From Phoronis australis (lineage: Eukaryota > Animalia > Phoronida): a stretch of DNA of 64,000 nucleotides. A program made the position numbers and the translations under genes. The stretch is from NCBI GenBank assembly GCA_002633005.1, contig NMRA01001035.1:1-64000 (forward strand), in the 5' to 3' direction. Positions 2,432 to 64,000 of this stretch are shown piece by piece. Each line of letters starts with the position of its first letter. Positions within the stretch are counted from its first letter, which is position 1. The notes below the pieces were generated by a model, which saw nothing but the letters and a program-made list of their open reading frames with translations, was not told where the DNA came from and ran no database searches.

Positions 2432-3437
2432 AACTCTTATGATTAGCTACGCAATTGCTAGTAGTTTTTCGGGGGTTACGCAAACACACGTAGTAGGCGT
2501 AGTAGGGAACTTTACATTTACAATTGAAACATTCAGAAACCAAATGCCACTTCTTTCCGTAAAATACAATACCATGATTTTAACATCCAAAATGTCTTGT
2601 TGAAAAACTCCTAGCATGTGGTAACATCTTCTCAGCTCCATCCTATCAAACTACCTTTCTGTTGCCCAGAGAATTTTGTTAATTCCATTTCTGAGCAGTG
2701 AATATAATTTGTAGCATTTACCAAAACCCATGAAATATTTTTTTTGGAAATGAAATGTTTAACTTGTGTTAGCCCATTTTTCGCCTGCAGTTGCTAACAT
2801 TTCACTGTACACCGCTGACGCAGAAAGCACCGTTCGGAACATTTGTCTATATATTCGTGTGTTTATTCATTTTCTAGTCACATTAATTTGGCTTTTAATG
2901 TCGCGTACCCGTTTAAACCACCGACGGATTTTCTTTATTCCCCAGTTTCTTGGAAAATTTTGGAACTAAAGCCAAAGGTGCACCACGATTTTTTTATTTG
3001 CAGGTGCCAAGTCCCTGTATTTGCCTACCTGTGGATGGCTCGTGATAATTCAACGGAATGAGGTCACGCGCTGTTACATTGACCCTGTAAACAATTATTG
3101 ACAGACGTGTTGCTCGTCTGTCTTGAGCTGTTTGTTCATAGGTCAATCATCACATGATCCGATAAGACGTAGTAAGTACGTCTATCTTTTTAAGGACTAC
3201 TCGAGTAATTTGGAAAACTTCGCGTCACGCCACAGAGTTGGCGATAAAAGTGTTATTCAATAGTGTATTAATATCAGGGACTTGACTGTATTTTCGGCAT
3301 GCACGAAGCCCACTTTGCGGCTGGAACGAAGCTAATTTGATGTTTGCTTTACGTGGGGCGAGTTTCTAATGAATCGAAAGCGAAAGTGGCGTATGCCTAT
3401 GAAATGAGATAGCCTTAAATACGTGTGCGCACTAAAG

Positions 3438-5003
3438 ATGTTGACGGATGGTGCTGCAGGCGGCAACAGATTGGACAAGCAGACTTGTGACTCTACAGAA
3501 AATGACAAATCGTCCGGACTGTGTAGGCCGCTGGCCGGTTTTGTGCTAATCGGTGTGTTTATCATATTGGAGCGCCTTGCATTATATGACGTGGTGGCTT
3601 TCCTTGAACGCGAATGGCACGTGTTTGGAGAGCAAGAAGACAGTGAAGTCAGACTTGTATATGCCTTTAATGCTTGCTGTTACTTTCTTCCAATTCTTGG
3701 CGGACTTCTGGCAGACAAACTTGGAAAGTCAAAGGTAGTTTTTGTGGGATTGTTCCTTTACGCAGTCGGCCTAGTAGTTCTATTTGTTGACTGTCCTGCG
3801 TTAGATGAAGTGGAACCCACGGTGTCGTCTGGCGATAAGTACTGTTCCTGGAAGCCCAAATCCACCATCGCGTTTCCACTGTGCTTGATTGCGTTAGGAG
3901 CAGCATTCGTCAAAACAAACTTAATAGTGTTACTGCTGAAGCAAGGTGAGGCATTAGCAGTGAACCATACTTCGGAGAACTGGTTTATTAAAGCCCTTGT
4001 GACAACGGAGACTTGGTTTGCTCTTAGCTTTATGTTCATTAGTGTCGGTGAAGCTCTTGCTTGGCTCGTTGGCAGCCTGCATAATGGGTTTAGTCCTCTT
4101 GTGCAAGCTTCAATGATAGTGTTTGTGTTTATTTTGTATGCAGTCGCTTCTCTTAAAAACCTTTTTGCTTCCCAAAACTGTAAAGATGGCGCTGTTCTGC
4201 CTCGTCTGGATACCAACTTGCCAACAGCAACAGAGCAGCTTGTAGCCAGGGAGAATGAACGAACAAGACGAAAAGAATTGCTGAAACAACTGTTTATTCT
4301 ACTGCCATTATATGGACTTCTGGTCACTTTCTGGATGGCATACTCTCAGATTTTAACATTCAGTCTCATACAAGTCACTCTAACAAAAGTGAATACTAAC
4401 TTGAACGGTGGAAATTTATCTAGTGTAAGTGGTTTCCAGGGTGTTACCAGTACCATAGTAACAATTGCTTTGGTCATCATTTATTCGTGCTTGCGTGCCA
4501 AGCGCGCTTGGGACAACATCCTGTTTAAAATGGGTTTGGGAATGGTTTGTGGGTGTCTTTCCCTTCTGACACTAGGTGCCGTTGAAATATACAGAAAAAG
4601 TGCCGACTTACAGCGCGTAGAACTTAACATTGTGCTTCCACAATATGTACTGATATCGATTGCTGAAACTTTTGTTTCTATTTCAGGATTTCAGTTCTTT
4701 TACACTAAAGCGCCAAAAACATTGGAATGTATGTCAGTGGGTATGTTTCTATCTACAGTAGGTTTTGGCATTTTCTTGGGAATTACAGCAACTACAATAT
4801 TTGAATTCGTCCTTAAATGCAGCGAAATGTCATGTCAGAACTTGGATTGGTATGCCTACGGGTTAGCTATTATTTTGTTGTTAAATTTCGCTATCTTTTG
4901 GTGGTACTCACATCGTTTCAATAACCGACAGGCGGAGCAGCAGGGCGAAACACCAGCAACCAAAACTTGTAGGTACGGGTCGATGAATACGACGCAGGCT
5001 TAG
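3438..5003 (+). CDS. Intronless SLC15/POT (PTR2) family oligopeptide transporter, SLC15A4-like, divergent
   Basis: Long hydrophobic MFS-like ORF. POT motifs ILERLALY, LPILGGLLADKLG, GAAFVKTN, PQYVLISIAETF, FFYTKAPK, LDWYAY. First ATG is at 3438 (aaagATG); the ORF track starts at GTG 3423. Confidence 0.88.
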   Translation: MLTDGAAGGNRLDKQTCDSTENDKSSGLCRPLAGFVLIGVFIILERLALYDVVAFLEREWHVFGEQEDSEVRLVYAFNACCYFLPILGGLLADKLGKSKVVFVGLFLYAVGLVVLFVDCPALDEVEPTVSSGDKYCSWKPKSTIAFPLCLIALGAAFVKTNLIVLLLKQGEALAVNHTSENWFIKALVTTETWFALSFMFISVGEALAWLVGSLHNGFSPLVQASMIVFVFILYAVASLKNLFASQNCKDGAVLPRLDTNLPTATEQLVARENERTRRKELLKQLFILLPLYGLLVTFWMAYSQILTFSLIQVTLTKVNTNLNGGNLSSVSGFQGVTSTIVTIALVIIYSCLRAKRAWDNILFKMGLGMVCGCLSLLTLGAVEIYRKSADLQRVELNIVLPQYVLISIAETFVSISGFQFFYTKAPKTLECMSVGMFLSTVGFGIFLGITATTIFEFVLKCSEMSCQNLDWYAYGLAIILLLNFAIFWWYSHRFNNRQAEQQGETPATKTCRYGSMNTTQA

Positions 5004-6412
5004 CGACGGCATAGGGATTTTAATTTGCCCTCTCGCTGAGCAGCAATAATCCGATCTATTAAAGATTACCAATAACTTCGACTTACCAACTTTCTGCTTA
5101 TTTCGTGTTGTCTACTTCTTTTAACTTGTCACGGAACATTGCTCTACAATATACGTTCAAATATCAAAACCTGAAAAGTCGTTAAATTAACGAATTTGTG
5201 AAATTGAAACGATCTGTGCTTTAATGCAGGGTTTATAGAAAACACGACCTCGCAAACATCACGTGACCAACTGTTGTGTTACCCACAATCGCAAGGTGAG
5301 GTTACCATTTTGCTCAAAGAACTCATCACGTGAGTGATCTGACGTCATACGCGGGTCAGAATCAAGAGATATGCGTTTGCCGGCGCGAACGTTAACTAAA
5401 ACGTCAACATTTCTCTTGGTGTTTGCAAAGTTTCTGTTGAGAATTTTGAAATGTGACCGTTCTCCTGACTCTGAGGTATAATTAGTAGCTTTCGACAAAC
5501 TTATTTATTATAAAAAATGAAGGTCATTGATAATCTTAAAATAACCAATACAGTGAGGGTCGTAGAAGCACTGGCTATATCTGAATGTGGTTTAAATAAT
5601 TTCGGTCTTCCTTGAAGATTTCATATACAGTGAAAGATATGTTCTGGTGTAGCATTCAAAACGTTATCTCCAATTAAGATGCAATCTTTCGGGTTAATAA
5701 TTTGTAAATAAAATATATTGATGTGGCTTTAATTCATTGTTTCTGCTTTACATTCATGAATTACGTAAGCAACTAAACCTGTACATTTTAACACATTCAG
5801 TTGTGTGTGCAATCCTTGTTTGCTTTCGAATATTTGAGGCAGGTGGAATATGTGGACAAATACAACGTTATCTTTGAAAGGCACAGCAAACCCCCAGAGA
5901 GGGAGCACTCACTTTTTTGCGGAGTGTGCCGTGGGGAACAACCCTTGCTACGATCAATATGGATCCATTGGTTCAAGGCTTGTGTAAAAATGGCACTCTT
6001 TTCAGGGCTCGACGCTATTCAAATCGCCAGATCGCATTTTGCGACCTAGCCAAAGTCCCTGGTCGCATTTTCAAAATCCAGCTCACATTCATAAATGCCT
6101 GGTTGCAAAATTTTCGCGCCATTTTTACCAAACTCGATTTTTTAGATTATCGAGAAAATATTTAGATTATGCTCTTACCTGCACCGTTAAATACTGACAA
6201 ATTTCAGGTCGCAAAATTGAGTTCGTTCATGCAGGTAAGGTATTACTGTTCCTCACGACGGCCATTGAAAGGCCCTCAAGCGCAAGGCAAGTTGCCGACG
6301 TGAAAGTTGAATCAGTGCTCCCTAACTAACACGTGCATTCGAGTAGATACGTTTGCGATGTGAAAAGGGAGAAAATGCCCGTTGAAAAAGTATCCGCGAT
6401 TTTGCTAGGTCT

Positions 6413-6432
6413 NNNNNNNNNNNNNNNNNNNN
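6413..6432. other. Assembly gap (20 N)
   Basis: Run of n. Confidence 0.98.
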
Positions 6433-6659
6433 AATATCAGTTCTGGATTATATCGGTCCCGGGGAATATCGTAAAGCATCGGGTCTTTTATAACCGCCGG
6501 GAATCTATGAGTTCATTTTCAAATAAACCACTGGCACGTACCCGGGTGCTTAACAGAGCCATGCCGGTATACTCTTTCATTTAGGACTGTAGCTGTTCTC
6601 TTTTGATTTGCAGCTTTGAAGTCCCCCCACTTGAATCGCTGGAGCAGGCCTACACTTTA

Positions 6660-6911
6660 CATGCGCGCACCCAGCCTAAACTAAAGGGGGGGCCTCGAAT
6701 TCTTCCATATGCGGACCTGTTACTTAAAAAAATCAACGAGGACCAAAAAACGGGGCCACTAGGTTCAGGCTTGCCAATCGTGCATCCGCGCCGAATTCCT
6801 GTGGACTTTGTGAATTTTTGCCTCGTTTACTCAACGGACTTTTTGTTTCACTGAGGCGAACTTTTTTGCCCAATTTGCCAATTCGCCCCGATCCTCCCTG
6901 GGTGCGCCCAT
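6660..6911 (+). mobile_element. MITE family B
   Basis: TIRs catgcgcgcacccag...ctgggtgcgcccat; second copy at 830-1064. Confidence 0.7.
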
Positions 6912-19990: not shown

Positions 19991-21164
19991 TTTTGGTTTA
20001 ATACAACTAATAACAAGATCATATGGTCAACCCAAGACGACAGAAACACCCAAAATTGAATTACACACAAATACATAAATGCTTTTTCTGAGTTTTAACT
20101 CAGTAAGGTTTTAAAAAACCTTACAGTTTTTTCAGACTTGACCAAAATGCACCATAACTAGTTGCTGAACTTAGTTCCAAACAAGCGTTACTTCTAGCTG
20201 GTATGATCAGATGACGCTGAGTAACAGAAAGTGGATGTCAAAGAAGGATCTCGACCCATATTAACTGGTAATAAGTAAGTGTGACCTGTCCGTTTCCACA
20301 AATGACAGATGATCTTACATACAGTATACCACATAAATTGCAGGCACGACACCTGTCATCGCCTGGGGGAGCCACAGTCGCACTCCCTGGACAGGCGAGC
20401 ACGCAGCTGGTATCCCTGCAACATGCTGTGATTAGCGGAAACCTCACCCATCGTTAAGCCTTTCCTGACCTTTGAATGAATCTTAATTTGCGTTGAAGAG
20501 TGTTTGTTGCGAAATAATTTAATGACATCTTGGAAACCTAAAAATTACTCGCTGAATGAAAATAAAAAATGACGACTTGGCATCGGCGTAGGCCTATTTA
20601 TCGAAGAAGTGGGGGGGGGGGGNTCAATGGGGGGAAATCTGGGATAAAATATAGAACACGGCGGTATCGGGGAGGAAAGAGTTGGCGACTGGGGAGTACG
20701 CGAATTTCGGACGAAGTAGTGGGTGAAATTTATGGAGGACTGGGGGTTGGGCGCGGTATCTATTGCTGAAAACCGAAAGGTGAAATTGGTAACGACCGAA
20801 GGCGGGGAAGGCGTGAAAGGCGTGAAATCCGCGTATTTTAGGCGATAATGTAACACCAGACGTCCCCCGGAAAGTTAAGTCCAGGTACAGCTCTGCGAAT
20901 TATCTCGGTGACCTGAACGCATTGTCTGTTTTGTCAGCAACAGTGGGTACAGAGGTAGCGATAGCCATCAAATTGAAACACACTGTTACAATAACACGAA
21001 GATTATTTTTCTAAATGCGTAAAGCATCAGATAAAAGATCCATGACCTAATCCTTTGTCATATGACACCACTTTAAATAACGGACGCATCGGGTCAAGCA
21101 ATATGTATGATGTTGCCGAGGGTGACAATGCTAGTTTTTAGCACGTTCGTAAGTAAATTTTACA

Positions 21165-22733
21165 ATGCTAGAAGTTAAACAAATAGCAGAAGACGAGGAG
21201 AATCGACATGAGAGCCGAGGTCTAGGCAAGGCGATCACTGGACTACTAGTTATTGGAACATGTGTCATCTTGGAGCGCATAGCCTTCTATAACACGTCGC
21301 AGTTCGTAGTTCACGAGCGCGACGCTTCGGAGGATAAATCCAACATTACCGTGTACGTGTTTAACGGCTGTTATTATATGCTGCCAATACTTGGGGGTTT
21401 ATTGGCCGACGTGGTGGGCAGGAACAGGACTATTCTGATTGGATTGTTCTTCTACAACGTGGGCCTGGTGCTGGTGTCAGTGGACTGTCCCGCACTAAAC
21501 AGACAGCTGCCAACCGACCAAAGATACTGCACCTGGGACCCAGAGGGCATTATCTTGTTCACCCTACCCCTAGTCGGATTAGGCACCGGCTTCATTAAAG
21601 TAAACTTGGTGACGCTTTTTCTCAAGCAAGGCGCCGCCGTGCAGGAAAAACTGCCGGAACAGAACATATTCGCACCCCACATGTCGGTAGAGAACTGGGT
21701 CGCTTTGAACTGCTTCTGCATTAGTTTAGGGGAGATAGCCGCGTGGCTATTAGGGGATGTATTGCAGATATTCACACCAATCATTCCAGCCGCAATCATA
21801 GCAGCGGTTACATTAGCGTTCGTGACATCTTTAAAATGTAAAATAATTCAACCAGAAGAAGTGCCCCAAAGACAAGTAGTACAACACGACGACTTCAATC
21901 CCAACGCCACGTTTCACTTGACGGAGCACATTGCTTTGCAACAGAGACAACGTAGGACATGTTTCCGTAAGCGAATGCTCTCCACATTGCCCTGCCTGGG
22001 TATGTTTGTAGTATTCTGGATGGGCTCTACCCAGGTACTTATGCAGACGTCCCGCCAGATGGACCCCAACGCAGTCGATCGTATTACGGTAATGAACGGC
22101 GGCGTGACGGCAGTAAATAACGCAGTCACTTCCATATGTCTTCTGTGCCTGTATACATTTCTTCGAGCAAAATTCAGATTTGAGTCACCGTTAACAAAAT
22201 TAGGCATTGGAATATTGCTTGGGGTTTTAGCACACGTTTTAATGGGACTGACCGACTCATTGGAAAAATACTATCATTATCACATACTGAAAGTCTCTTG
22301 GGCTGTGCCCCAATATATTCTCATTGGGGTATCCGAGACTGTAGCTACCATATCGGGAATCGCACTATTCCTCCAGATGGCGCCAAAGAACTTCGACAAC
22401 CTCACTGTCGGGATGTTTCTTTCCACCGTAGGATTTGGGTTGTTATTCGGCGGGGTTGCACAGGCAATAGGTGAGCCGACAGTGCGCAGCGCCGAGCCAG
22501 ATTTTGGCCATTTGGACTACTATGCCTACGCCATGTCGGGTATCGCACTGGCCAACTTCGTGATATTTTGGATTTACTCGGTGCATTTTTTCAAACCTCC
22601 ATCAGACGACTTCGAGGAGACAAACGATGACATAGCAAGACCTGTCTGCCAACAGTCCGGGACCAGGAGATATGGCGCCACCCGCAGCACACAATGCACT
22701 GTGCAACATTTAAAGCATCCGGAAAGTATATAG
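21165..22733 (+). CDS. Intronless SLC15/POT family transporter, paralogue of 3438-5003
   Basis: 522-aa ORF. Motifs ILERIAFY, LPILGGLLADVVG, GTGFIKVN, PQYILIGVSETV, APK, LDYYAY; collinear with the first paralogue (shared VDCPAL, GMFLSTVGFG). Confidence 0.9.
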   Translation: MLEVKQIAEDEENRHESRGLGKAITGLLVIGTCVILERIAFYNTSQFVVHERDASEDKSNITVYVFNGCYYMLPILGGLLADVVGRNRTILIGLFFYNVGLVLVSVDCPALNRQLPTDQRYCTWDPEGIILFTLPLVGLGTGFIKVNLVTLFLKQGAAVQEKLPEQNIFAPHMSVENWVALNCFCISLGEIAAWLLGDVLQIFTPIIPAAIIAAVTLAFVTSLKCKIIQPEEVPQRQVVQHDDFNPNATFHLTEHIALQQRQRRTCFRKRMLSTLPCLGMFVVFWMGSTQVLMQTSRQMDPNAVDRITVMNGGVTAVNNAVTSICLLCLYTFLRAKFRFESPLTKLGIGILLGVLAHVLMGLTDSLEKYYHYHILKVSWAVPQYILIGVSETVATISGIALFLQMAPKNFDNLTVGMFLSTVGFGLLFGGVAQAIGEPTVRSAEPDFGHLDYYAYAMSGIALANFVIFWIYSVHFFKPPSDDFEETNDDIARPVCQQSGTRRYGATRSTQCTVQHLKHPESI

Positions 22734-48901: not shown

Positions 48902-49830
48902 TTGTTTGCAATTCGTAAAGTTGACTTTGTAGCTGCTGGAAGAGATATTGCGTCGCAACAGCGTAAAGATCCCCATGTATCATTGTTATTGACCTGGTTG
49001 GAGCAGGGGGTCTCTCCTGATGACGGGGAATTATTTCTAGCTAGCAAGGAATCGAAGACTTTGTGGGTTAATCGTGATCGGTCCTTGCTTAAGGATGTTT
49101 ATGTTCTCTCTAAGCAAAAAGAGGATGATAAACTGCTTTGCTTTATTCCCTCTTCATTACGACGAGAGATACTTGCTATTAGTCATGATATTCCATGCTC
49201 AGGTCATCAAAATGTAGCTCGTACTACTAAGAATATGAAAGCTAAGTATTATTGGCCAGGAATGACTTCGGAGATTAAGCAGTACGTTGGTTCTTGTGAC
49301 AGGTGTGGTCTGATTAAGAAACCCAATAGATATCCTAAGAAGCCCTTAGATATATATCAGGCATCTTTACCAATGGATCGGGTGCATCTAGAGTTTTTAG
49401 GTCCATTGCTGGTGACTCCCCGTGGGAAGGAGCATATATTAGTCATGGTTGATCAGTTCACAAAGTGGGTGGAGTGTATACCTGTTGAGTCTGAGACAGC
49501 GGAGGTTACCGCTCAGGCTGTAGTGGAGCATTTCTTCTCCCGTTTTCAATTTCCGCTTCAGATCTTTACAGATAGGTGATCTAACTTTGAAAGCGAACAG
49601 TTTACTCAACTATGTATTTTAACAAGAGTGCATAAATCTAGTACGACTGCTTATTGACCTAGTGTTAATGGACAATGCGAGCGGTTTAATCGCACTTTAA
49701 TAGATGCAGTGCGATGCTACATGGATAAGAAGCAGTCAGATTGGGACCTCTTCATTCTACAGACAGCATGCGCCCTACGATGATGTGTTAATCTGAATAC
49801 TGGTTTTAGTCACAATTATCTAGTACTGAC
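48902..49830 (+). mobile_element. Gypsy integrase fragment (HHCC zinc finger plus catalytic core), with stops
   Basis: HDIPCSGH...YYWPGM...CDRC; VDQFTKW; IFTDR*SNFES; NGQCERFNRTL. Confidence 0.88.
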
Positions 49831-52634: not shown

Positions 52635-54060
52635 CTAGTCAGCAATTCGTACCCCAAACTGACAAATGGTATCTGGGAGAATTTTAGGGAATCCGCCATT
52701 GAAACTGTGATAGATGCAAAAAACATCTCAACTGATTTTTCTGCTATCTTGCGTGTTTTTTGTGAAAATGTCTACGAACCTTCCGCAAATACATCATTCT
52801 ATGCGTTGTTGGTGAAAACTAAAAAACATTGGTATCCATAGTGCGAAAATATTCAGACATCCATATGCCCATCTGGGCATGTGCTGTTTGGGGACTTTCC
52901 TTAATGAGAAGTTTAAGAAAAGTTATTCAACAACGCCAATTTCACCGGTAGTCGACTATCCTTATAAGTTTTTCTAACCTCATTTCACAGCATCTATCCC
53001 ATACCATTTCAACATATCTCTTTTTTATGACCAACTACTTTGCTGTCTGATTTGTTCGGGTTAAGTGATATACACTGTATGGAGATGCAGTTGTCTCCTT
53101 CCGGCCCAATACACCTATTATAATTGTTTTGATAAAATTCGTTGAATTGAGATGCGTCAGGACACGATCAACCGACTTCGAGAACATTAGAAAACTAAAT
53201 TTCAATCAGACCCACACATTAAAATTTCAGAATTCGAGTTCGCAGTTATGTATAACTGGACTTACTTTATAGATTTTTTACTCACAATGCATTTTGAAAT
53301 GGTGACTACGGTATATGCACATGCTATTGGCAGCGTTATCGTCAGGATCAAAGGAAACCAACGTGCCTTGTTGTGCTTCTCATTCTTTTCTGTAAAATAA
53401 GAAAATTAAAGCTCTCTTGATATGTTCGATCGCCTATTTTAATATTTCAAAACTGTATTTTAAATCCTTGCATACATTTGTTACTATGCAGACATTGGTC
53501 AGTTGTACAATTTTGGTGAGGTGCCCTACTTCTAGAGCCCGATGCGGTATGAAGAAGGTTGATTGCCTAGACTTTTTATGGTTATATTTTGTAGAGCTCA
53601 GATCAATCTCAACACTGGTTGTAGTTTTGTTGTTTTAAATTTGGCTTCAGCTGAGATATTGAGGCAGGAAGTAGGGCAATTTTTTCAACATTTTGGAATC
53701 ACCGCAAACTAGCTAAACTGGTAGCCTTCAAAAATGGCTAAGATGTAACTGAAACCGTGACATTTTCTATGACTGGCAAGTTGAAAGACACCCCAATTCA
53801 GTGATAAACTTGAAGTGTTTCATTTTGCACTATTGTTCTCAAGGTAAGTTCGCAAAAAGTGCCAAAACGTAGCTGTAACGAGACTTGGCATTGGCAGAAA
53901 AACAACACGTTCCCATAGCAACCACAAGGTGGCGCACACAAAAAATTAATGTTGGTATGAAGGTTGGGGCATCAACCCCTACCATCATGCAAACAATCGA
54001 GGAAATCCGTGACATAGCCTTTATCACTTTTCGCCTGGTCCATTCGTGGACGTGCTCTTA

Positions 54061-55550
54061 ATACACTGTAGTTTTGCTTGCAAGTTTACTTGGTCCAGTC
54101 TGTCAACGGCCGAACCGAGTGCACTATGACGTCATCAAACTCGCAGGTTGACATGCAAGAGGTCCGGACACCTACTTGAAGCCAATGGAAAGTATTCATT
54201 TTCATTTGACACTTACCCAGCAGCTTCAACAAAACCTTTTACCTCTTCTACGTGTCTTTAGAAAATTATCAACCAATTTTGAGGCTCAATACACTGTAAT
54301 TGTAGTTTTACTTGCAAGTCTACTTGGTCTGGTATGTCACAACCGGACCAAGTGCACTGTGACGTCATCAAACTGACAGAATCAGAATATTCCCTAAGAT
54401 ATTTCACTTTTTATCCCAAGAGTGCTTCTTCTGTTAACATTTCCGATGTCTACAATGCTTTGTCGTGCTTTTCGCTGTTCAAAAATCACTACGTTTTCTG
54501 GCATCGTTCACGTGGCGTGATACCACGCTGGGGTAACCCTATGTTGTTTGAGTATATGAAAAGCTGTCAAATTTTGTTTTCTTCTAAAATTGGGGTTGTT
54601 TTCGGGTTGCATATTGATATAAACCAGCTTTTAAAAAATAATGAAGGCGTACTGGCATGGTCCCTGGCACGGTCACTCTAGTTACCCTGAACCAAAGGAC
54701 ACATTCGCGCAAAAAGCAAAAATGACAGGAAGCACTTATTTTCTGTTTTTCGTCACAGAGAACTTTATTTCACATAGCTTGTTGACTAAAAACGTCAATA
54801 CAGGCTGAAATGATCTGTGTTCAAAACTTTACTCGAGAAAACAGGCAAAGTAAAAATACTCATGTTAACTGCCGATAGTTCAACAATGAAATCACACAGC
54901 AATGACATGTAAGAAAATGTAATGCCAGGTACTAAAGAAACGATTACAATAATAACAAGAAGCAAGCATAGGACAATCGTACCCCGTCGCTTTTTGTTTG
55001 AATTTAGATTGCGACCTCCTGGATATAAAACCAAAATCATGACGATGTCTTATCAAAGCCGGAAATCTAAAAAAATGAAACAACTCATGAAATATTTCGA
55101 TTCTGCGAGTTTGATGACGTCACAGACAGCGCACTCGGTCCGGCCGTTAGACCGGACCAAGTAAACCTGCAAGAAAAACTACAGTGTATTGAGCCTTAGA
55201 AATTTGGTCGATAACTTTATAGACATATAGAAGAGGTAATAATTTCTTTCCCAGCTGCTGAGTACATGTCAAATGAAATTGAATACTTTTCATTGACGTC
55301 AAGTATGTCCGGACTTCCTGGTAGCCATCCCGGGAGTTTTGTGACGTCACAGCTCACTCGGTCCGACCGGGGAAGAGATCGGACCAAGTAAACCCTCAAG
55401 CAAAACTTCAGTGTATTGTGCCGCAAAATGGGCTGATAACTTTCTAGAGACATGTAGAAGAGGTAATGGTTTTGTTGGAGATGCTGGGTACTCATAAAAT
55501 GAAGTTAATTATATACTTTTCATTGAGTAAGTATGAGATCTGGATCTCCT
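54061..55550. repeat. Foldback structure: inverted arms made of about 230-bp tandem units
   Basis: Left arm 54061-54390 (TGACGTCA at 54127 and 54360) is the reverse complement of the right arm 55092-55550 (55115, 55342). Further partial units lie at 57895-58112. Confidence 0.8.
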
Positions 55551-56037
55551 GCCGTAGCAAGCCCAAGTAAAACTTAGAAAGAATTTTTATACTTTATGTT
55601 GAGACGCTAACAACGTCTGACTATATTCTGTGGAATAGGCATGAAGTTGTCAACGACCAGTAATTACATAAATAGACGAAAATTTTGCCACTCAAAACAT
55701 ATTGTTAGACCATTGCCTGCACGGTTGCTCAACACTCAGCCAAGTGAAACTCTATGAATCGGAATGCTTCAGTTTTTCTTCAAAGATCGCTTCTTCTAAA
55801 ATAGTTTCCTGTGCTTTTCATTGTTAAAGAACCATTTCCTTTTCTTGTATTGCTCGGCACTTGGCTTGACACCACAAGTCGGTGGCACGCTGCCGGCTGG
55901 AACCACGTCAGATGGCAACACTCCAGGTTATCGATGTTTCGAAAATTCTGAGTCGTAATAATTTTCGTCTATACTTGCAATAACTGATCCTTAACAACTT
56001 CACATCAATTTCACTTTATGTAACAACTTCATTGCAG

Positions 56038-57516
56038 GTAAACTTTTTGGATTACCGGTGGGTTTTTATGCCAATCAACCTAAATCAAAGCCATTGGGTC
56101 ATTCTAGTTGCGGACATACAGCAGAAGACGGTAACAGTACTGGACTCTCTTGGAAATCACCACAAAGAGTTGACATCATGGTGGAAGTATATGAAGAGTC
56201 ATAAACACTGTTGCTACACATGTGCAAGAATTAGTGTGTCCTCTATCACACCCTGTGTTTGCATAATTGTCCACATAATATTCTTCACCTGTTTATCACA
56301 CTACAAAAGTGACAAGTGATTTTAATGATGGAATGGACTTCTTTTTTCACAAAGGCAAAAATTCAATAGACATCATGTGAATATTTTAGGTAATTAATTC
56401 ATGTCTACCAGTATATGCAAGGTAATAGGGATTGGGTTGTGTGACACAGTAACAGTTGGGGAATATGATTCGCTGACAATGCCCAAATAGGCCTGCAGTT
56501 GTAGGTGATCAGAGTCCGCATTCAAACTCAAATTTCCAAGAATTCTTCCATGTGGCGCATGTATTAGAAACTCGTCCCAGATTGAAACATGATGCGATAC
56601 ACAGCCAGAGAAAAACATACAAAACGTCGTTTTCTGTAAGGTCATAATAGATGTAATACTTTATCACAAGTTTCTAATGCTGGTGGAAGTACCTAACAAC
56701 CCTATATCTGACATCTATGTCCAATGTGTAGTGCATCTTTTAAACAAACCTCTGGAAATAAAACAATGCTTCAGAAACATATTTAACACCAAAAACATAC
56801 TCTCTGAACATTAAGGATAGGAATGAAAATAGTGTAACATGTTGTTTCAGGAGATTCATGAGAGAAAGAAACACTACAACAAAACATGAGGTGTGGACTG
56901 CAGTTCACACAACATCTGTTCAACAGAGCGATGGCCACAGCTGTGGACCAATAGTTCTACTGGTAAATTTTAGTGTTGAATGAGCCTGGGGCATGGACAG
57001 TTTTTATCAGTTCCTTTATACTCACGTTCATGTGGCATATAGGTTTAGACATCATCACAAGAACAAATAAGTTGTGGAAAAATAAACCATCTATTGCAAA
57101 TGTGGACTGAATTTCACGGTTTTCTTTGATATGTTTAATTTGCCTTTGGTTCAACTGTTCTGCTAAGAAAGTTAATTAAGGAGCAAAAACGTAATACGCC
57201 TTGTTTTAAAAAGGTAAACTATGATTTCTATTTTCAGAATACATACGCCATTTTAAAGACAGTGCCACTGCAATTGATCAAGCAAGAGCATGTGAAGAAT
57301 ATGCCTAACTTTATTTAAAAAAATTTGATAACGAACATGACATCACAAAAGGAAGACAACTTTATATGTGACATGGTTGGGTGTCTAGGACGAGATGGGA
57401 AACAGAAGTGGATAATGTGTGACGTATGTACGCGCTGGCTGCATATGAAATGTGCCTTACTTGTCAGTGCAACAAACGATTTTACCTGTGCCATTTGTGA
57501 AGCACAGTACAAGTGA
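56038..57516 (+). pseudogene. Spliced Ulp1/C48 SUMO-protease plus PHD finger gene fragment (transposon-derived)
   Basis: Exons 56038-56186 (NQSHW, LDSL), 56851-56962 (QQSDGHSCG) and 57238-57516 (C4HC3 PHD) join in phase. One stop at 57316; AATAAA at 57574. Confidence 0.75.
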
Positions 57517-58116
57517 GTGACAATCACAGTACGTTTTGGTATTGAGAACAGTCAGGTGCCTTTGTTCATGTACAATAAATGATTGATTAATTAGCTGAGT
57601 GATTGAAACAAGTCATCGTCTCATTCCAAGTCAAAAATGTCCTGGCTGTAATACATACCCTTCATTTCACTCTTCGGGTTCAGTCGGTTTTAATACTTAA
57701 CGCTGGTTGTATCATTGTAAACAATACAACATCCAATTATTTTTTTCAATCCAAGTCAGTGCAGATACTGTGAACAACGTTCGAAAGTATTTTTAAGCAA
57801 GTTTTCAAAAATTTTGCATTGGCTATATAGACTACCACACACTTCTTCATCTCCTAGCGTTTCACCTGTGACACCTTTTCCGGTGAAATTCTGCGAGACT
57901 TTGATGACGTCACAGGTCTGGACGGTTATTTGAAAACATGATTTTTGAACAGTGAAATTCAGGAAAATAATTCCAACATCAAAAATGGGAACAGAAAATG
58001 TCTTTTTGAAGAAAAAAGTGAATGAACTGATAAATTATTAAAATTGTCTCAGTTTTTATGACGTCACAGCGCGCACTCGGTCCCGCAGCCAAAGACCAGT
58101 CCAAGTAAACCTCCCT

Positions 58117-60033
58117 GGGGCACCATCAAGTTATTCACGGGCTATCGGTCTAGTCTTGAAAGGTATAAATTGGAATACGGCATTAGCATTCTTAGACGAT
58201 ATTGTGGTATTTGGGAGGACTTTTGAGGATCATTTGCTTAATTTGAAGTCTGTCTTCGAGAGGTTTAGACAGTATGGGCTCAGATTGAAACCTAAGAAAT
58301 GTGACCTGCTCAAGGCCAAAATTGAATTCTTGGGAAGACAAGTAGATGCTCATACATTGAGTATGACAAAGGAACAGATAGATAGCGTTCAAAAATGGCC
58401 TAGGCCAGGGAATCGGAAACAAGTTCAACAGTTTTTGGGCTTGGCTAACTATCATAGACAGTTTGTACCAAACTTTGCTGAGATAGCTGCACCATTATAT
58501 GTGATAACGGGGTCAGCAGATTTTGTTTGGATGGAAGCACAGGAAACTGCTTTTAACCAGTTAAAGGAAGCATTGATATCTCCACCTGTGTTAGGTTTGC
58601 CTACTAAGGAGGGGCAATTTATACTGGACACTGATGCAAGTCTGGTTGCTATAGGTGCACAACTTAGTCAGTTACAGGAAGGGGTTGAACGGGTATTGGC
58701 TTATGCAAGTTTGAGTTTAAGTCCAGAACAGCAGAGGTATTGTGCTACTCGACGAGAGCTATTGGCTATTGTAAAATTTGTAAATCAATTTAATGTTTAT
58801 CTGGCAGGGCGACGTTTTGTTGTGAGGTCTGACCATAGTAGCCTGAGATGGCTGAAAAATTTCAAAAACCCGAAAGATCAGCTTGCGAGATGGTTGGAAA
58901 ACTTGTCAGAATATGATTTTGAATTGCAATATAGAGCGGGGAAAATGCATACCAATGCTGATGCACTATCAAGAATTCCAGGTGTGGAAATATGTCATGA
59001 CTTTCAACGAGGGGTACCATTAGAATCCTTGCCCTGTGGAGGCAGCTCAAAATGCACAAAACATCATCGGGAATGGGCAAAATTCTATAGTACAGTGGAT
59101 GATGTGGTTCCTTTAGGTGCTAAGGTGAAAACAACTAGGGAGGATCCAGTGGATATAATCGCATCTAGTTCTTTATGGAACAGCTATAGAGAAGACAGTG
59201 ATACCCGGGGTATACAAGTAGTAACTAGGCAACAGGAGAAAGTAGTTTCCGGCGCAAATGGACAGGCGGAAAGGGTGAATAGGTCACTGATGAATGCAGT
59301 TCGCTGTTTTGTGGGGGAATTTCAGTGTGATTGGGATTTGTATGTACCAATGATTGCAGGAGCACTGAGAGCATGTGTGAATCGTTCGACAGGTTTAACG
59401 CCTAATATGATGGTGTTGGGTAGAGAAGTAAATACTCCAGCGGAAGTGGCTTTCAGGTTAAGTCCGGGAGTAAGAGTCTTGGAGCCGAGAAGGTATGCTG
59501 ATGAGTTGGTGGATAAGATGGCACGAGCTCATGAACTTGCTCGGAAAAATTTAGGTACGGCTCAGCTAAGAGCTAAAATTCATTACGACATCATGGTTAA
59601 TCAGTATGGTTATGCAGAGGGAGATGTTGTAAGAGTGTTTCGGGATGCTGTACCACAGGGAATGAGTAGGAAACTGTATCCACCATGGTCAGAACCGGCG
59701 ATAATAGTAGCTAAGATATCGGATCGCTTATTTAAGGTAAGGTTTAAGCGATCAGTTGGCACGTATAACCATGATAAGCTGAAGAGATGTAAGGATAGGG
59801 TATGTCCTGAGTGGATTCAACGGTTAAAGGGTGATCCACTGCTATTAGCTGCTGAAAAGGTCAAAGCATTGTCTACGGGGGTACAATTGTATTGTATATG
59901 TCATCAACCTGATGATGGTTCTACAATGGTACAATGTGATGACTGTAAACAATGGTTTCATGCATTGTGTTTTGGGTTGAACCAAGAGCAGGCTATGGCT
60001 CTTCCTGAATTCAAATGTTCATTATGTGAATGA
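58117..60033 (+). CDS. pol: Gypsy Pol (RT C-terminal half, RNase H, internally deleted integrase, C-terminal PHD finger)
   Basis: GAPSSY..AFLDD, FLGLANYHR, LDTDAS, RELLA, SDHSSL, NADALSR, NGQAERVNR, LYPPWSEP (GPY/F), YCICHQPDD...CDDCKQWFHALC...CSLC. Confidence 0.92.
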   Translation, partial: GAPSSYSRAIGLVLKGINWNTALAFLDDIVVFGRTFEDHLLNLKSVFERFRQYGLRLKPKKCDLLKAKIEFLGRQVDAHTLSMTKEQIDSVQKWPRPGNRKQVQQFLGLANYHRQFVPNFAEIAAPLYVITGSADFVWMEAQETAFNQLKEALISPPVLGLPTKEGQFILDTDASLVAIGAQLSQLQEGVERVLAYASLSLSPEQQRYCATRRELLAIVKFVNQFNVYLAGRRFVVRSDHSSLRWLKNFKNPKDQLARWLENLSEYDFELQYRAGKMHTNADALSRIPGVEICHDFQRGVPLESLPCGGSSKCTKHHREWAKFYSTVDDVVPLGAKVKTTREDPVDIIASSSLWNSYREDSDTRGIQVVTRQQEKVVSGANGQAERVNRSLMNAVRCFVGEFQCDWDLYVPMIAGALRACVNRSTGLTPNMMVLGREVNTPAEVAFRLSPGVRVLEPRRYADELVDKMARAHELARKNLGTAQLRAKIHYDIMVNQYGYAEGDVVRVFRDAVPQGMSRKLYPPWSEPAIIVAKISDRLFKVRFKRSVGTYNHDKLKRCKDRVCPEWIQRLKGDPLLLAAEKVKALSTGVQLYCICHQPDDGSTMVQCDDCKQWFHALCFGLNQEQAMALPEFKCSLCE

Positions 60034-60272
60034 TTCACTGTGAGAACGGGATGAATTGGGAAGAGGAATACTACTCTATGAACATATTTAGGTAAACGCC
60101 TGGGAAAGGTGTGGCTAAAACTCTTCGTCTATAAATTCAGCTTTCTCTGATTATTAAGCATGCTTGTTCACCGGATGAGATGTTCTCTATAAATACACGA
60201 ATAAGCGAACAGCAGAAGACATTCCTTTCATCAAAATGACTGTTAAGCTGCTATTCTATTGGTTATTGTAGA

Positions 60273-61360
60273 ATGTCGAATGCACGCAGAGAACAGTTGT
60301 GGCGCGGGGTAGCGGACAGCCTGATGGAGCTGCTCAAGGGTGACGCGGGTGCCTCAGGAAGTCAGAGCGAGGAGACGCCGCGACGGGGAAGGTCGCCCAC
60401 CCGCCGGAGGAGCAGATCACCCCGGGAAAGAGGATCTTCCAGGAGATCGATGGAGAGATCGGGCCGAAGGCAACACCGAGGTCGGCGCTGGGAGAAAACC
60501 CAGAAGAAGGATCGCAGCCATGGGGGACCGTCGGGGAGTCACATGAAAGATCCGGCGAGGGGATGTCCTCACTGCCTTCAGGACCCCAGTGACATGGCGA
60601 AACATGTCCTGGATTGCCACTTACCTTGTGGGATCCTGCTGGGAACGGGACTGGGGGACCAGGAGCAGTCCCGTAAAAGAATGTGGTTCCTCCACGATGT
60701 GGCCAAGGTTGTGGATGAAAAGCCCAAGGAACTGATTATGCGGGTCGAAGGGTGCCCGTTCTTATCTAGCCTGGAGACGCCAATGGAAGAGGAAGTCCAG
60801 CTGATATGCCAGCATGTGGGTTTGGAGAGGCCGAGCAGTATGTCCTTGGGGAATGTAGAGCCTGCCTCTTCTACTGCACCCAGAGGTTTTGGAGGCTCTT
60901 CTACGATCATTCACCCGGTCCCAGCTCATTAGGGTGGCTGGGAGAAGGTGGCCGGCAGGGAAATGCATCCCATACAGGTGGTTGGGAGATTGTTTGGCGG
61001 AGCAGCCTATGGAGACATCCTACGCTGAGGTAGTTCGGGGGAAGCCGGCGTCAAAGGGTGCGTCGGGGATGAGTTCGGCAGCGAGCTCATCAGGGGTTCG
61101 ACCCCTTTCCCAAGGGAAGGCTACCGGGAGCGGGGAACCGACGGCGGTGTCCAAGGAATCTCGGATTTCTTCAGGGGCCTCTTCGTCGAGTAACTTGTCA
61201 GGGACCACGGAGATGGGATCAAGGGAATCACCTCATCAAAGGTTGATGAAGACCATGCGAAGTTCCCAAGGGGGTGAGTTGAACTTTCCTGATAGTAGGG
61301 ATGATAGTGGTAAAGTTCTGAAATCATCTTTCTTACAGGTGGAACCTCAGGTACCCGTAG
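60273..61360 (+). pseudogene. ORF2 N-terminal part (RS-rich region, C2H2-like finger, Ser-rich linker); frameshift near 60866
   Basis: Overlapping ORFs 60273-60932 and 60889-61386; CPHC-x9-HVLDCH; RGRSPTRRRSRSPR. Confidence 0.6.
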
Positions 61361-61361
61361 A

Positions 61362-62225
61362 GGTGGAGATGCCCACTTTCACTTAGATAGGGTGATTCAA
61401 AGGCATCGGATGTCATCAGAGGAAAGTGCTCTAGATGTGTATAGGCAGTTAGGGACCCTTTGTGAAGTGAAAGTAAATGTGGAAGTAGTAGGGGGGATAG
61501 CTGTATTCTGCGATCCTGAAAGATGGGATATGGTTTCCGCTGTTAGGGATTGGGAAGAGTTTCATGTTGCCTTAGGGTTGCATCCAAAGTCGGTAACCAT
61601 GCAGGTAGTGGAGAAGCAGATGAATACTTTGTTGGAATTTCTAGCTAATGAGGATTTACCCATTGCGGCATTAGGAGAAATTGGTATTGATCTGACGGGT
61701 CCTTACAATGAGGAAGCGCGGGAACTGGATTGGTTGTTTATGCAGGAGCATTTCTTAAGATCACTCTTGGTAAAATGGGATCGACCACAAATGGGACGGG
61801 GTAGACCTGTGGTTTTCCATTATCGAAATGCTTCGACCATGACGAAAGATGCTGGGGATATTCTATGGGAAATAGCTAGGGATTGCCTGAATGAAGCTAC
61901 ACCCATTCAATTGCATTCTTTCCGTGGGGGACCTCAAGTGGTGGAAAGATGGTTAAAGACATTTCATAACACATACTTCTCAGTTTCATGAGTTGGATTA
62001 GGTCACATTAGGGGGGACCGAGCTCGCGGGATACGAGCTATTCCGTCAAAGCGATTGTTGGTGGAAACGGATGCACCTTTTAATCATCCAAGTGGCACGG
62101 GAATGCGTCAGTCCCATTCCGTATTAATAGGGGAATGGTGCAAGCAAATAGCGGAAGTCCGGGGAGTTAGCATGGGAGAAATTTGCAGACTTTCGCGGGA
62201 TAATCTAGCGTCCTTTATTCATTAA
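61362..62225 (+). pseudogene. tatD: TatD-family metal-dependent nuclease domain with one in-frame TGA at 61989
   Basis: DAHFHLD (61368), GLHP, GEIGID, PVVFHYR, LHSFRG, YFSVS*, IPSKRLLVETDAP and the terminal helix ...RDNLASFIH* (62225), all in one frame. Confidence 0.88.
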
Positions 62226-62741
62226 GAAAGGGAGGAAAAGTAAGAGTAAGGGATGTATGGCATGGGGAGAATCACTGCTAGTAGTATGAAATTTGGATGT
62301 TAATGTCTTTATTCAAGTGTTGTCTCCTTGGCTTTTCCATCAGATTCTGGGAGTCAAAGGGCTCTTTTCCGGTGACTTTATCCATAAGGGTATAATTGGG
62401 AAAAGTATGGGTATTTAGTCGTGATTCTTGTTGTTTGTCCATACATGTGTTACAGGTATGGGATGGCACTCCACAAGAGAATGGGATGCAACATACCTTA
62501 CATACTCGTACTATGTTTCAGAACCAGCCAAGAGGACTCAGTAGAGGGTAACTGGGAAGGGGTGGCTGGGGGAACTTATAGGGGATTTGAATAGGGATGG
62601 CTCGGAGTACAATTGGGGAAAATTAAACATTGGAACTGCAATTTGGACTATGTTGATATTGGGTACATTAGTCTGACTCTTATATCATGGCTGAGTAAGA
62701 GAATCTTTTATGGTATGATTGGCTAGATTATCTAGGGGAAA

Positions 62742-63185
62742 TGTCATAGGGATAGTCCGGCTGAGGTTAACTTTTAATAAGTTTTAAACAACTGGGTTGG
62801 TACAGCAGTTCCGATTAACATTACCAGGGAAAGCTCCAAAAAATAGAATGGGGAGGAAATGTAGTGAGCCAGTGCATATGTTACGTGAGGTTTAATTGGA
62901 TAGTCAGGTTCGCGGGCTTCTCTGTTAACTTGGCTGCGATTGGAGAATGGATGGAACCTGCTGGGATGGATGATGTAACATGATGTAACGATGACGTCAC
63001 GACCTCGTGGTTCACTCGTCCTTCGCACTTGAGACTCGAAAGAGACAAGACGCAATCTAATACGACTCCAACGCAATATAACACGACTCCAACGTATACT
63101 TCAGAGACCTGTATTAACCAGTTAGGTAAGCTGTCTTATAGTTCTAGTGTATATTAGACTAACGTGGTCGGGGAAAGACACAACA
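62742..63185 (+). repeat. Putative 3' LTR preceded by a polypurine tract
   Basis: aggggaaa|TGTCATAGG...GACACAACA. The matching 5' LTR is absent, so both boundaries are inferred. Confidence 0.6.
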
Positions 63186-64000
63186 AAAGTAGTGTTCATG
63201 TAAAGACGTCTTCTTTAGTCCTCTCTCCACAAGCCATTACAAACATAACCCACGTGTTTTGCGTGGAGTATTTGGAGGTAGCGAAGTTAGATACAAGCTT
63301 TCATCAACGTGACATGACGTACAGTTGAAGACTGAACCTCAACACGGCCAGACGCGTAAAGTGTGATTGTAGAAGCGAAGCAGAAAATGCTGGTGAGCGC
63401 CCTAATGAGCTAGCCTATAAGAGGCCCGTCTGAACCTAGGTAAGAGTTCACTACACTAATTTAATGTATACTGGGGAACCCAATGTTCGTCCGCCTAAGC
63501 ATAAAACCGACTTGCTGTTGTACTCACCGAATTATTCCACTTCAAAGTTATGATCTGAATAGGATTCGATTTAACTCTCACAGATATACCGCATTCATCG
63601 ATTCGGAAGTTTTCTTTAATTTGTGCCGAGTTATTTCAAATGTGCACTGCCTTCGGCAGCCATTTTATTGTGACACCTAAGTTCGTCATATGCTGCCCCC
63701 TTTTGTAAAAACTGAGAAACATGCAGAAAAAGGCCAACGAAGTAATGAAAATTGCAACAGCCTGTTTTTATTGACATAAACTCGATTTGAAGCTTTGATG
63801 TTGAGCTCTGCACTGTGGTTTCCAATAAAAGCCAATTGGACAACATTTCAATGCAGTTTAATGGTGAATGCGTGAGGCAAAATGTTAAGAACCCAGCGTA
63901 TCGCATTTGTCTGCGGATTTTTCCTTTGGCCTTCTAGATCCTACTAGTGCCTGGGAAAAACAGATACATTGCATAAACAAACCCTGGATCATGTTTTGTG

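What the first reader, a model, noticed from the sequence alone, without database searches (positions are those of the whole stretch)
58117..63185. Gypsy LTR retrotransposon carrying a TatD nuclease in the env position
Seen: between the pol stop (60033) and a PPT plus TG...CA LTR (62742-63185) lies a full TatD domain (61362-62225) with every TatD metal ligand motif: DAHFH, GEIG, FHYR, LHSF and ETD. It has one TGA where Gly is expected. Established: TatD enzymes are TIM-barrel 3'-5' exonucleases/AP endonucleases, and Gypsy third ORFs are usually env. Inference: this lineage captured tatD as a stable accessory gene. It might trim or repair cDNA, remove damaged or excess cDNA that would trigger cytosolic nucleic-acid sensing, or interfere with rival elements. 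I do not recall a formal description but cannot check the literature. This copy is decayed.
Basis: partly seen in the sequence, partly recalled or inferred. Interest (0 to 1): 0.88.

Follow-up and report, generated by a model that had tools for sequence, protein, structure and literature searches.

The report
Gypsy retrotransposon carrying TATDN2-like nuclease
This is the broken tail end of a jumping gene whose third gene encodes a TatD nuclease most like the host enzyme TATDN2, and related genes occur as near-identical repeated copies in clams and other marine animals, pointing to a widespread, likely retrotransposon-borne family that would clear RNA-DNA tangles, a role not yet tested.

Summary
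Observation largely confirmed. A 5'-truncated Gypsy remnant (half RT, RNase H, integrase lacking its core, PHD tail) is followed by a TatD domain with all seven metal/catalytic residues, then a PPT and 3' LTR. Corrections: the LTR is better placed at 62860-63185, and 'ORF2' and TatD are one ~650-codon ORF3 (basic arm, unnamed Cys/His domain, linker, TatD) broken by two frame changes and a stop. It is not a chance host retrocopy. It belongs to a large family of long TatD proteins (bivalves, a brachiopod, unnamed animals) that sit as 96-100% identical dispersed copies and keep their active site (139 of 149). Reads and contigs of this species show the LTR at many sites and RT joined to ORF3 in another copy. 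I found no contig linking pol and TatD in another species, and RNA may be antisense. Nearest precedent in print: DEDDy exonuclease ORF3 of rotifer Gypsy elements; I found no paper on TatD. This scan noted the layout before, in sea-urchin and flatworm DNA.

The parts
58108..60033 (+). pol remnant: C-terminal half of RT (FLDD motif), RNase H, integrase with internal deletion, C-terminal PHD; 5'-truncated against a flanking repeat
   Evidence: 12 of 12 closest full pols share FLDD and the PHD tail
59170..59252 (+). approximate junction of the integrase deletion (H2C2 finger and most of the core missing)
   Evidence: blast gap against P0282 and P0273; contigs branch at 59252, one contig of another sample bridges the deleted form, one enters from other sequence; RNA loose end behind 59169
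59893..60027 (+). PHD finger at the integrase C-terminus
   Evidence: PF00628 E 6.3e-9
60034..60272 (+). pol-ORF3 spacer with candidate splice acceptors (AG ending at 60091, and at 60271 one base before the ORF3 ATG); splicing not shown
   Evidence: 8 RNA reads with one foreign 5' part end at 60096; deletion joints of other copies land at 60091 and 60246-60249
60273..62225 (+). ORF3, one gene of about 650 codons, broken by frame changes near 60853 and near 61364 and by a TGA at 61989
   Evidence: other copies differ in length at or beside both frame breaks
60273..60560 (+). basic, Arg/Ser-rich N-terminal arm (27 R+K in 96 residues); likely disordered and nucleic-acid-binding or nuclear-targeting
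   Evidence: the matching stretch of relative P0139 is modelled with pLDDT under 50 over residues 39-120; role inferred
60561..60927 (+). unnamed conserved middle domain (CxxC...H...H motif then helices, about 150 aa), split by the first frame change
   Evidence: family HMM positions 5-111 match 60561-60851 (iE 3.8e-5); positions 115-137 continue weakly in the next frame (E 0.013); hhalign 91%; pLDDT mostly 94-98 in P0139
60928..61367 (+). low-complexity Ser/Gly-rich linker
   Evidence: 9-base (frame-keeping) deletions in other copies at 61060 and 61159
61368..62225 (+). TatD nuclease domain, group II (HxH), TATDN2-like
62850..62859 (+). polypurine tract
62860..63185 (+). 3' LTR, 326 bp, TG...CA with imperfect inverted ends
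   Evidence: mixed-flank loose ends behind 63185; in 5 RNA reads the LTR end runs into a TGG-led primer-site-like stretch, i.e. a 5' LTR of another copy (tRNA-Leu assignment recalled)
63186..63241 (+). insertion target: 3' end of an unrelated LTR-like repeat
   Evidence: uniform loose ends before 63186 and mixed ones behind 63241 in DNA and RNA runs

Best explanation
This is a decayed copy of a Gypsy LTR retrotransposon whose third gene, in the env position, joins a basic arm and an unnamed Cys/His domain to a TatD nuclease that was likely captured long ago from host TATDN2 and likely degrades the RNA strand of R-loops and structured RNA formed by the element's own transcripts. Shown: the layout, the intact catalytic residues, the single-gene ORF3, membership of a large multicopy family and TATDN2 as best host match among those tested. 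Inferred: one ancient capture; that the family rides in Gypsy elements in other species; expression from a spliced subgenomic RNA; nuclear action. Predicted mechanism: the basic arm and Cys/His domain bind the hybrid (TATDN2 needs its disordered N-terminus for R-loop binding, PMC10711561) and the two-metal barrel removes the RNA 3'-5'. That would keep integrated copies transcribable and spare germ cells the R-loop damage that kills them when Tatdn2 is lost (PMC12709183). This copy cannot make the full protein.
For: Family: 279 representatives (50% clusters) at E<=1e-10, best 150 listed at 26-39% identity. 67 of 69 long ones carry the middle domain, though the HMM was built from 49 family members; 0 of 71 bacterial hits do. 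139 of 149 rows covering all seven sites keep all seven (167 rows; 18 incomplete). Copies: clusters of 17-64 members on many contigs; full-length members 96-100% identical in the TatD domain; one 866-aa Dreissena protein on 5 contigs. TATDN2: profile A5 scores Argonauta TATDN2 P0226 223 bits, best of 71 bacterial 148, YcfH 144, TATDN3 84, TATDN1 78. [FY][CS]DP motif in window, P0226 and 130 of 167 family rows, 0 of 71 bacterial. Tree of 35 rows: family+window 97/98, family+TATDN2 versus bacteria 100/100. Same species: LTR with many flanks; joint 58303->60783 (RT to ORF3, side 43); several distinct spacer forms in one sample; a TatD contig about 84% identical. TATDN2 biochemistry: PMC10711561.
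Against: No contig from another species with pol and TatD together was found (contig-length matching; 0 fused proteins). Only one host TATDN2 was in hand, labelled by its source, and the same label sits on family member P0003. TATDN1/3 were not in the tree, which is unrooted. An AU test did not reject placing the window's TatD with bacteria (p 0.237). RNA reads are few (326, 397, 129 laid of 11-13 million read) and first mates lie on + across the internal region, which in most stranded libraries means antisense RNA; strand was not calibrated and no splice joint was listed. TATDN2 has minimal activity on plain RNA:DNA duplexes, so it would not replace the RT RNase H. In yeast, loss of host RNase H raises Ty1 mobility (PMC4214602 abstract), so hybrid removal can also harm an element. 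Substrate specificity can shift after capture.
Confidence: 0.45

Rival explanations
1. Same stable Gypsy ORF3, but a DNase: it would trim 3' ends, cut AP sites or nick circular and excess cDNA.
For: TATDN1, TATDN3 and bacterial TatDs are 3'-exo/AP endonucleases with the same barrel (PMC10085689). TATDN2 still nicks catenated DNA, more so without its N-terminus. The nearest solved structures are YcfH-type DNases.
Against: The family scores 223 bits on TATDN2 against 78-84 on TATDN1/3, and TATDN2 has little activity on ss or ds DNA and only very weak AP activity.
Confidence: 0.2
2. Same stable ORF3, acting on RNA outside R-loops: it would trim the element's RNA or tRNA primer in the particle, or destroy small-RNA precursors and so blunt silencing, as proposed for the rotifer DEDDy ORF3.
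For: TATDN2 is an exo- and endonuclease on hairpin RNA. PMC5408684 proposes 3' processing or a silencing role for a nuclease ORF3. The possibly antisense RNA over the element suggests silencing pressure.
Against: The basic arm looks more like a nuclear, hybrid-binding tail (inference). No localisation or small-RNA data here.
Confidence: 0.22
3. The TatD family is mobile but rides in several kinds of element or as its own unit; its place behind Gypsy pol holds for this lineage only.
For: No cross-species pol link was shown. Rotifer nuclease ORF3s are shared between LTR and Penelope-like elements. Subgroup P0020/P0044 has a shorter build. One contig has TatD inverted against an LTR end.
Against: In this species TatD, spacer, pol and LTR are covered together and joined by deletion joints. 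An unchecked earlier scan note reports the same layout in complete sea-urchin elements.
Confidence: 0.1
4. Chance insertion of a host TatD retrocopy behind pol at this locus only.
For: The copy is decayed and only one LTR is present.
Against: The gene has the family's middle domain, absent from host TATDN2 P0226. It falls inside the family clade. Other copies link RT to ORF3, and an 84%-identical TatD copy exists in the species.
Confidence: 0.03

Closest known systems
DEDDy 3'-5' exonuclease ORF3 of bdelloid rotifer Juno/Vesta Gypsy-like LTR retrotransposons (PMC5408684; read abstract, sections 3.3 and 4, passages)
   Same: Enzymatic, non-envelope third ORF between pol and the 3' LTR; a 3'-5' nuclease with intact catalytic residues; no transmembrane segment; function unproven.
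   Different: Unrelated fold (TIM-barrel TatD, not DnaQ/DEDD); fused to a basic arm and an unnamed Cys/His domain; the family spans several animal phyla; that paper never mentions TatD.
Host TATDN2 (human: PMC10711561, abstract and two Results sections read; medaka: PMC12709183, abstract only; Argonauta P0226)
   Same: Group II HxH TatD at the C-terminus of a long protein with a disordered N-terminus; shared [FY][CS]DP and HxHLD motifs; best host score; adjacent in the tree.
   Different: Multicopy, fast-evolving, inside a retrotransposon, with an extra folded Cys/His domain that P0226 lacks; activity untested.
TATDN1, TATDN3 and bacterial YcfH/YjjV/TatD (PMC10085689, passages read)
   Same: Same fold and acidic/His active-site residues.
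   Different: Much lower profile scores for TATDN1/3; TATDN1 lacks the HxH motif; bacterial hits lack the family motifs and the middle domain.
env ORF3 of errantiviruses and other env-bearing Ty3/gypsy elements (PMC13524379, passages only; TatD not mentioned)
   Same: Position after pol; a candidate splice acceptor just before the start codon.
   Different: No hydrophobic segment in the window's pieces and in 60 of 64 long relatives; an enzyme, not a fusogen.

Membership tests
Ty3/Gypsy LTR retrotransposon | pol order PR-RT-RH-IN | tested here: met
   RT-RH-IN remnant in the window; the closest full pols carry protease, RT, RH, IN and PHD, read in that order in P0273 and P0276
Ty3/Gypsy LTR retrotransposon | PPT followed by a TG...CA 3' LTR | tested here: met
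   62850-62859 and 62860-63185; flank breaks at 63185
Ty3/Gypsy LTR retrotransposon | paired LTRs, PBS and target-site duplication | tested here: inconclusive
   5' half absent from the window; 5 RNA reads show an LTR end followed by a PBS-like stretch in another copy; no genome held
TatD nuclease, group II | TIM barrel with HxH, Glu, His, His and Glu-x-Asp ligands | tested here: met
   motif definition from PMC10085689
TatD nuclease, group II | metal-dependent nuclease activity | not testable with these tools
   needs an assay; this copy is broken
TATDN2 clade | groups with TATDN2 rather than TATDN1, TATDN3 or bacterial TatD | tested here: inconclusive
   profile scores and motifs favour TATDN2; tree 100/100 against bacteria, but one TATDN2 row, no TATDN1/3, no root, and AU p 0.237 for window+bacteria
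TATDN2 clade | R-loop-specific RNase activity | not testable with these tools
   shown only for human TATDN2 (PMC10711561)
env-bearing errantivirus-type element | ORF3 with signal peptide and transmembrane anchor | tested here: not met
   highest 19-residue hydropathy 0.8-1.4 in the window's pieces; 4 of 64 long relatives exceed 1.8; Pfam shows TatD and no env family in 22 and 17 relatives
host TatD processed pseudogene | single locus, derived from a host gene, lacking element-specific domains | tested here: not met
   family middle domain present, absent from P0226; several diverged copies in the species

The most novel reading that the evidence does not exclude
An ancient, still-active clade of animal Gypsy elements (FLDD RT, PHD-tailed integrase) captured the germline R-loop RNase TATDN2, fused it to a new Cys/His domain and uses it to resolve R-loops at its own copies: a retrotransposon-encoded R-loop resolvase that protects its transcription and the host germ cell, and that explains the many 'TATDN2-like' genes annotated in bivalve genomes.
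Probability: 0.35. Interest if true: 0.85.

Novelty: new variant of a known kind. Interest (0 to 1): 0.62.

Why it matters
Most Gypsy third ORFs are env or have no known function. A nuclease ORF3 tied to TATDN2 gives a specific, testable role that links retrotransposons to R-loop biology in the germline. It would supply hundreds of natural, fast-evolving TATDN2-like enzymes and a new conserved folded domain for study; TATDN2 itself is a proposed drug target and has no solved structure among the PDB hits. It also warns that 'putative TATDN2' and 'YcfH-like' gene counts in bivalves are probably inflated by transposon genes.

Tried and rejected
No genome is held for the window, so copy counts, paired LTRs and dN/dS could not be computed. 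A pol scan of viral contigs found nothing. No pol hit in any of 144 loci. Matching contig lengths between pol and TatD clusters gave no pair (only 15 members listed per cluster and 10 TatD representatives asked, so this is weak). No pol-TatD fused protein among 323 TatD and 37 pol proteins held. Atlas searches gave leads under 0.8 only. The middle domain has no Pfam family or PDB sequence hit; its fold was not really tested because TatD filled the structure list, and the viral fold search was not run. No RNA holder was listed in the run index; raw reads were laid instead. Variants in TatD among the rows shown were 5 synonymous of 8: too few, and taken from 40 of 405 and 40 of 233 rows, so not used. 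P0220 and P0228 are repetitive fragments and were dropped from the second tree (against 106). The integrase piece at 48944-49828 is not the missing part of this pol (52% identity where they overlap). Rejected: LTR start at 62742; ORF2 as a separate gene; env function. Literature: searches (2 papers; 3; 0; 33 papers, 31 listed, one opened: PMC6962438, a host TATDN2 label only; 0) showed no description of a TatD-bearing retrotransposon, judged mostly from listings; PMC6431247 passages name DEDDy but no TatD cargo. Repbase, Dfam, GyDB, subscription journals and supplements were not seen and may hold one.
Full report
What is there. The pol frame (58042-60033) holds the C-terminal half of RT, RNase H and a C-terminal PHD finger. 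Similarity to full pols starts at 58108, against an unrelated repeat. No gag, protease or 5' LTR lies in the window. The 12 closest full-length pols found with the integrase tail all have an FLDD RT motif and a PHD tail. Against them the window's integrase lacks about 250-290 residues, including the H2C2 finger and most of the core. Contigs of the same species branch at 59252: one from another sample bridges the deleted form with no differences, and one enters from other sequence, so deleted and other forms both exist.

The LTR. The 3' end at 63185 is well supported: loose ends behind it have mixed flanks in 3 contigs and in 13 and 19 RNA reads. The next 56 bases are the end of another LTR-like repeat into which this element inserted. 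In 5 RNA reads the LTR end runs into a TGG-led primer-site-like stretch, which is what a 5' LTR of another copy would show (the tRNA-Leu assignment is recalled).

One ORF3, not two genes. TatD hits flank a single TGA at 61989, all seven metal or catalytic residues are present, and the model is a confident TatD barrel. The relatives are long proteins with a conserved CxxC...H...H plus helical domain ahead of TatD. An HMM of that domain matches 60561-60851 in the 'ORF2' frame (hhalign 91%) and picks up weakly in the next frame at 60859 (E 0.013). From the ATG at 60273 to the stop at 62225 is 651 codons, within the family's 609-1126 range. Other copies differ in length at or beside both frame breaks, and show 9-base deletions in the linker. 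In relative P0139 the middle domain folds at pLDDT mostly 94-98 between disordered stretches. It has no Pfam or PDB sequence match; its fold was not tested apart from TatD.

The family. A search of 50%-identity representatives gave 279 hits at E<=1e-10; the best 150 are 26-39% identical to the window's TatD. Of 69 proteins of 550 aa or more, 67 carry the middle domain (the HMM was built from 49 family members); 0 of 71 bacterial hits do. Of 149 rows that cover all seven sites, 139 keep all seven; 18 of 167 rows were incomplete. Named members come from Mercenaria, Dreissena, Pecten, Argopecten and Lingula, where they are annotated as TATDN2-like, YcfH-like or uncharacterised. Clusters have 17-64 members on many contigs. 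Full-length members are 96-100% identical in the TatD domain, and one 866-aa Dreissena protein is on 5 contigs. Some unnamed duplicates may be haplotypes or repeat assemblies. Dispersed, near-identical, catalytically intact copies are what a mobile gene under selection gives.

Is TatD tied to pol beyond this locus? In this species, probably. One contig joins RT (58303) to ORF3 (60783), one sample shows several different spacer forms (joints 60015->60249, 60130->60246, 60047->60091; two have sides under 30 and the sample could be pooled), and a TatD contig about 84% identical marks a diverged subfamily. No listed contig spans the whole element. One contig has TatD inverted 1.6 kb from an LTR end, which I cannot explain. 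In other species I could not show the link: all locus scans and contig-length matches failed.

Origin. The family profile scores Argonauta TATDN2 (P0226, not in the profile) at 223 bits, the best of 71 bacterial proteins at 148, and YcfH, TATDN3 and TATDN1 at 144, 84 and 78. An [FY][CS]DP motif is shared by the window, P0226 and 130 of 167 family rows and by 0 of 71 bacterial ones. In a 35-row tree the family with the window's protein is one side of a branch (97/98), and family plus TATDN2 stand apart from 13 bacterial rows (100/100). Against: only one TATDN2, no TATDN1/3, no root, and an AU test did not reject the window's TatD grouping with bacteria (p 0.237). A 67-row quick tree gave the bacterial split at 98. 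Capture from TATDN2 is likely, not shown.

Expression. Three RNA runs of one study cover the element thinly (326, 397 and 129 reads laid; X5 and X6 in all 30 bins, X7 in 24). First mates lie almost only on + over pol and ORF3 and on both strands over the LTR. No splice joint was listed, though a donor would lie in the missing 5' part. Eight reads with one foreign 5' end stop at 60096, near an AG at 60091, and another acceptor-like site lies one base before the ATG. This is a lead only.

Mechanism. Human TATDN2 is a 3' exo- and endonuclease on hairpin RNA, degrades the RNA of R-loops, needs its disordered N-terminus to bind them, has minimal activity on plain RNA:DNA duplexes, little DNase and very weak AP activity, but nicks catenated DNA (PMC10711561; abstract and two Results sections read). 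Medaka Tatdn2 protects primordial germ cells from R-loop damage (PMC12709183, abstract only). TATDN1/3 are the DNA exo/AP enzymes (PMC10085689, passages). In yeast, loss of host RNase H raises Ty1 mobility (PMC4214602, abstract), so the benefit to an element is not obvious and needs testing. The structural claim, a stable Gypsy-borne TatD ORF3 in this lineage, I put at about 0.85.

Novelty. Enzymatic ORF3s, including a DEDDy 3'-5' exonuclease, are known from rotifer Gypsy elements (PMC5408684; abstract, sections 3.3 and 4), so this is a new variant of a known kind. Searches showed no paper on a TatD-bearing retrotransposon, judged mostly from listings; PMC13524379, PMC6431247 and PMC6962438 were seen as passages only. 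Repbase, Dfam, GyDB and supplements were not seen. This scan noted the layout earlier in sea-urchin DNA and disarmed versions in flatworms.

Noticed in passing
window 3408-5003 (+), within inverted repeats at 114-1820 and 6128-6831: An uninterrupted POT/PTR2 transporter ORF (PF00854) lies between four pairs of inverted repeat arms, as if captured in a foldback-type element; a second uninterrupted POT ORF is at 21153-22733.
   Followed up: no
window 48944-49828 (+): Decayed integrase fragment (H2C2 and core) of a different family similar to the same PHD-tailed pols; 52% identical to the studied pol where they overlap.
   Followed up: partly
window 55984-57516 (+): Ulp1 (C48) protease piece and a PHD finger in what look like separate exons; likely a DNA-transposon remnant (recalled association).
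   Followed up: no
window 54057-58114: Several diverged direct and inverted copies of one repeat with a GACGTCAC core; one abuts the truncated RT.
   Followed up: no
run X3 record 22, matching window 62858-63185 (+) and 61267-62342 (-): A 3031-base contig has an LTR end and, 1.6 kb on, TatD in the opposite orientation; other contigs also branch at 62342. Unexplained rearranged copy.
   Followed up: no
proteins P0020, P0044 (cluster of 20): Shorter (466-469 aa) multicopy subgroup with the middle domain and a Cys-rich insert after the GEIGID motif; may belong to another element.
   Followed up: no
protein P0126: A family-type 973-aa TatD is filed under a Sedimenticola MAG; likely animal host DNA in the bin (inference).
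   Followed up: no
window 59170-59252 and run X3 record 18: The integrase-deleted form occurs in another sample too; it could be a shared old insertion or a non-autonomous subfamily that kept ORF3.
   Followed up: partly
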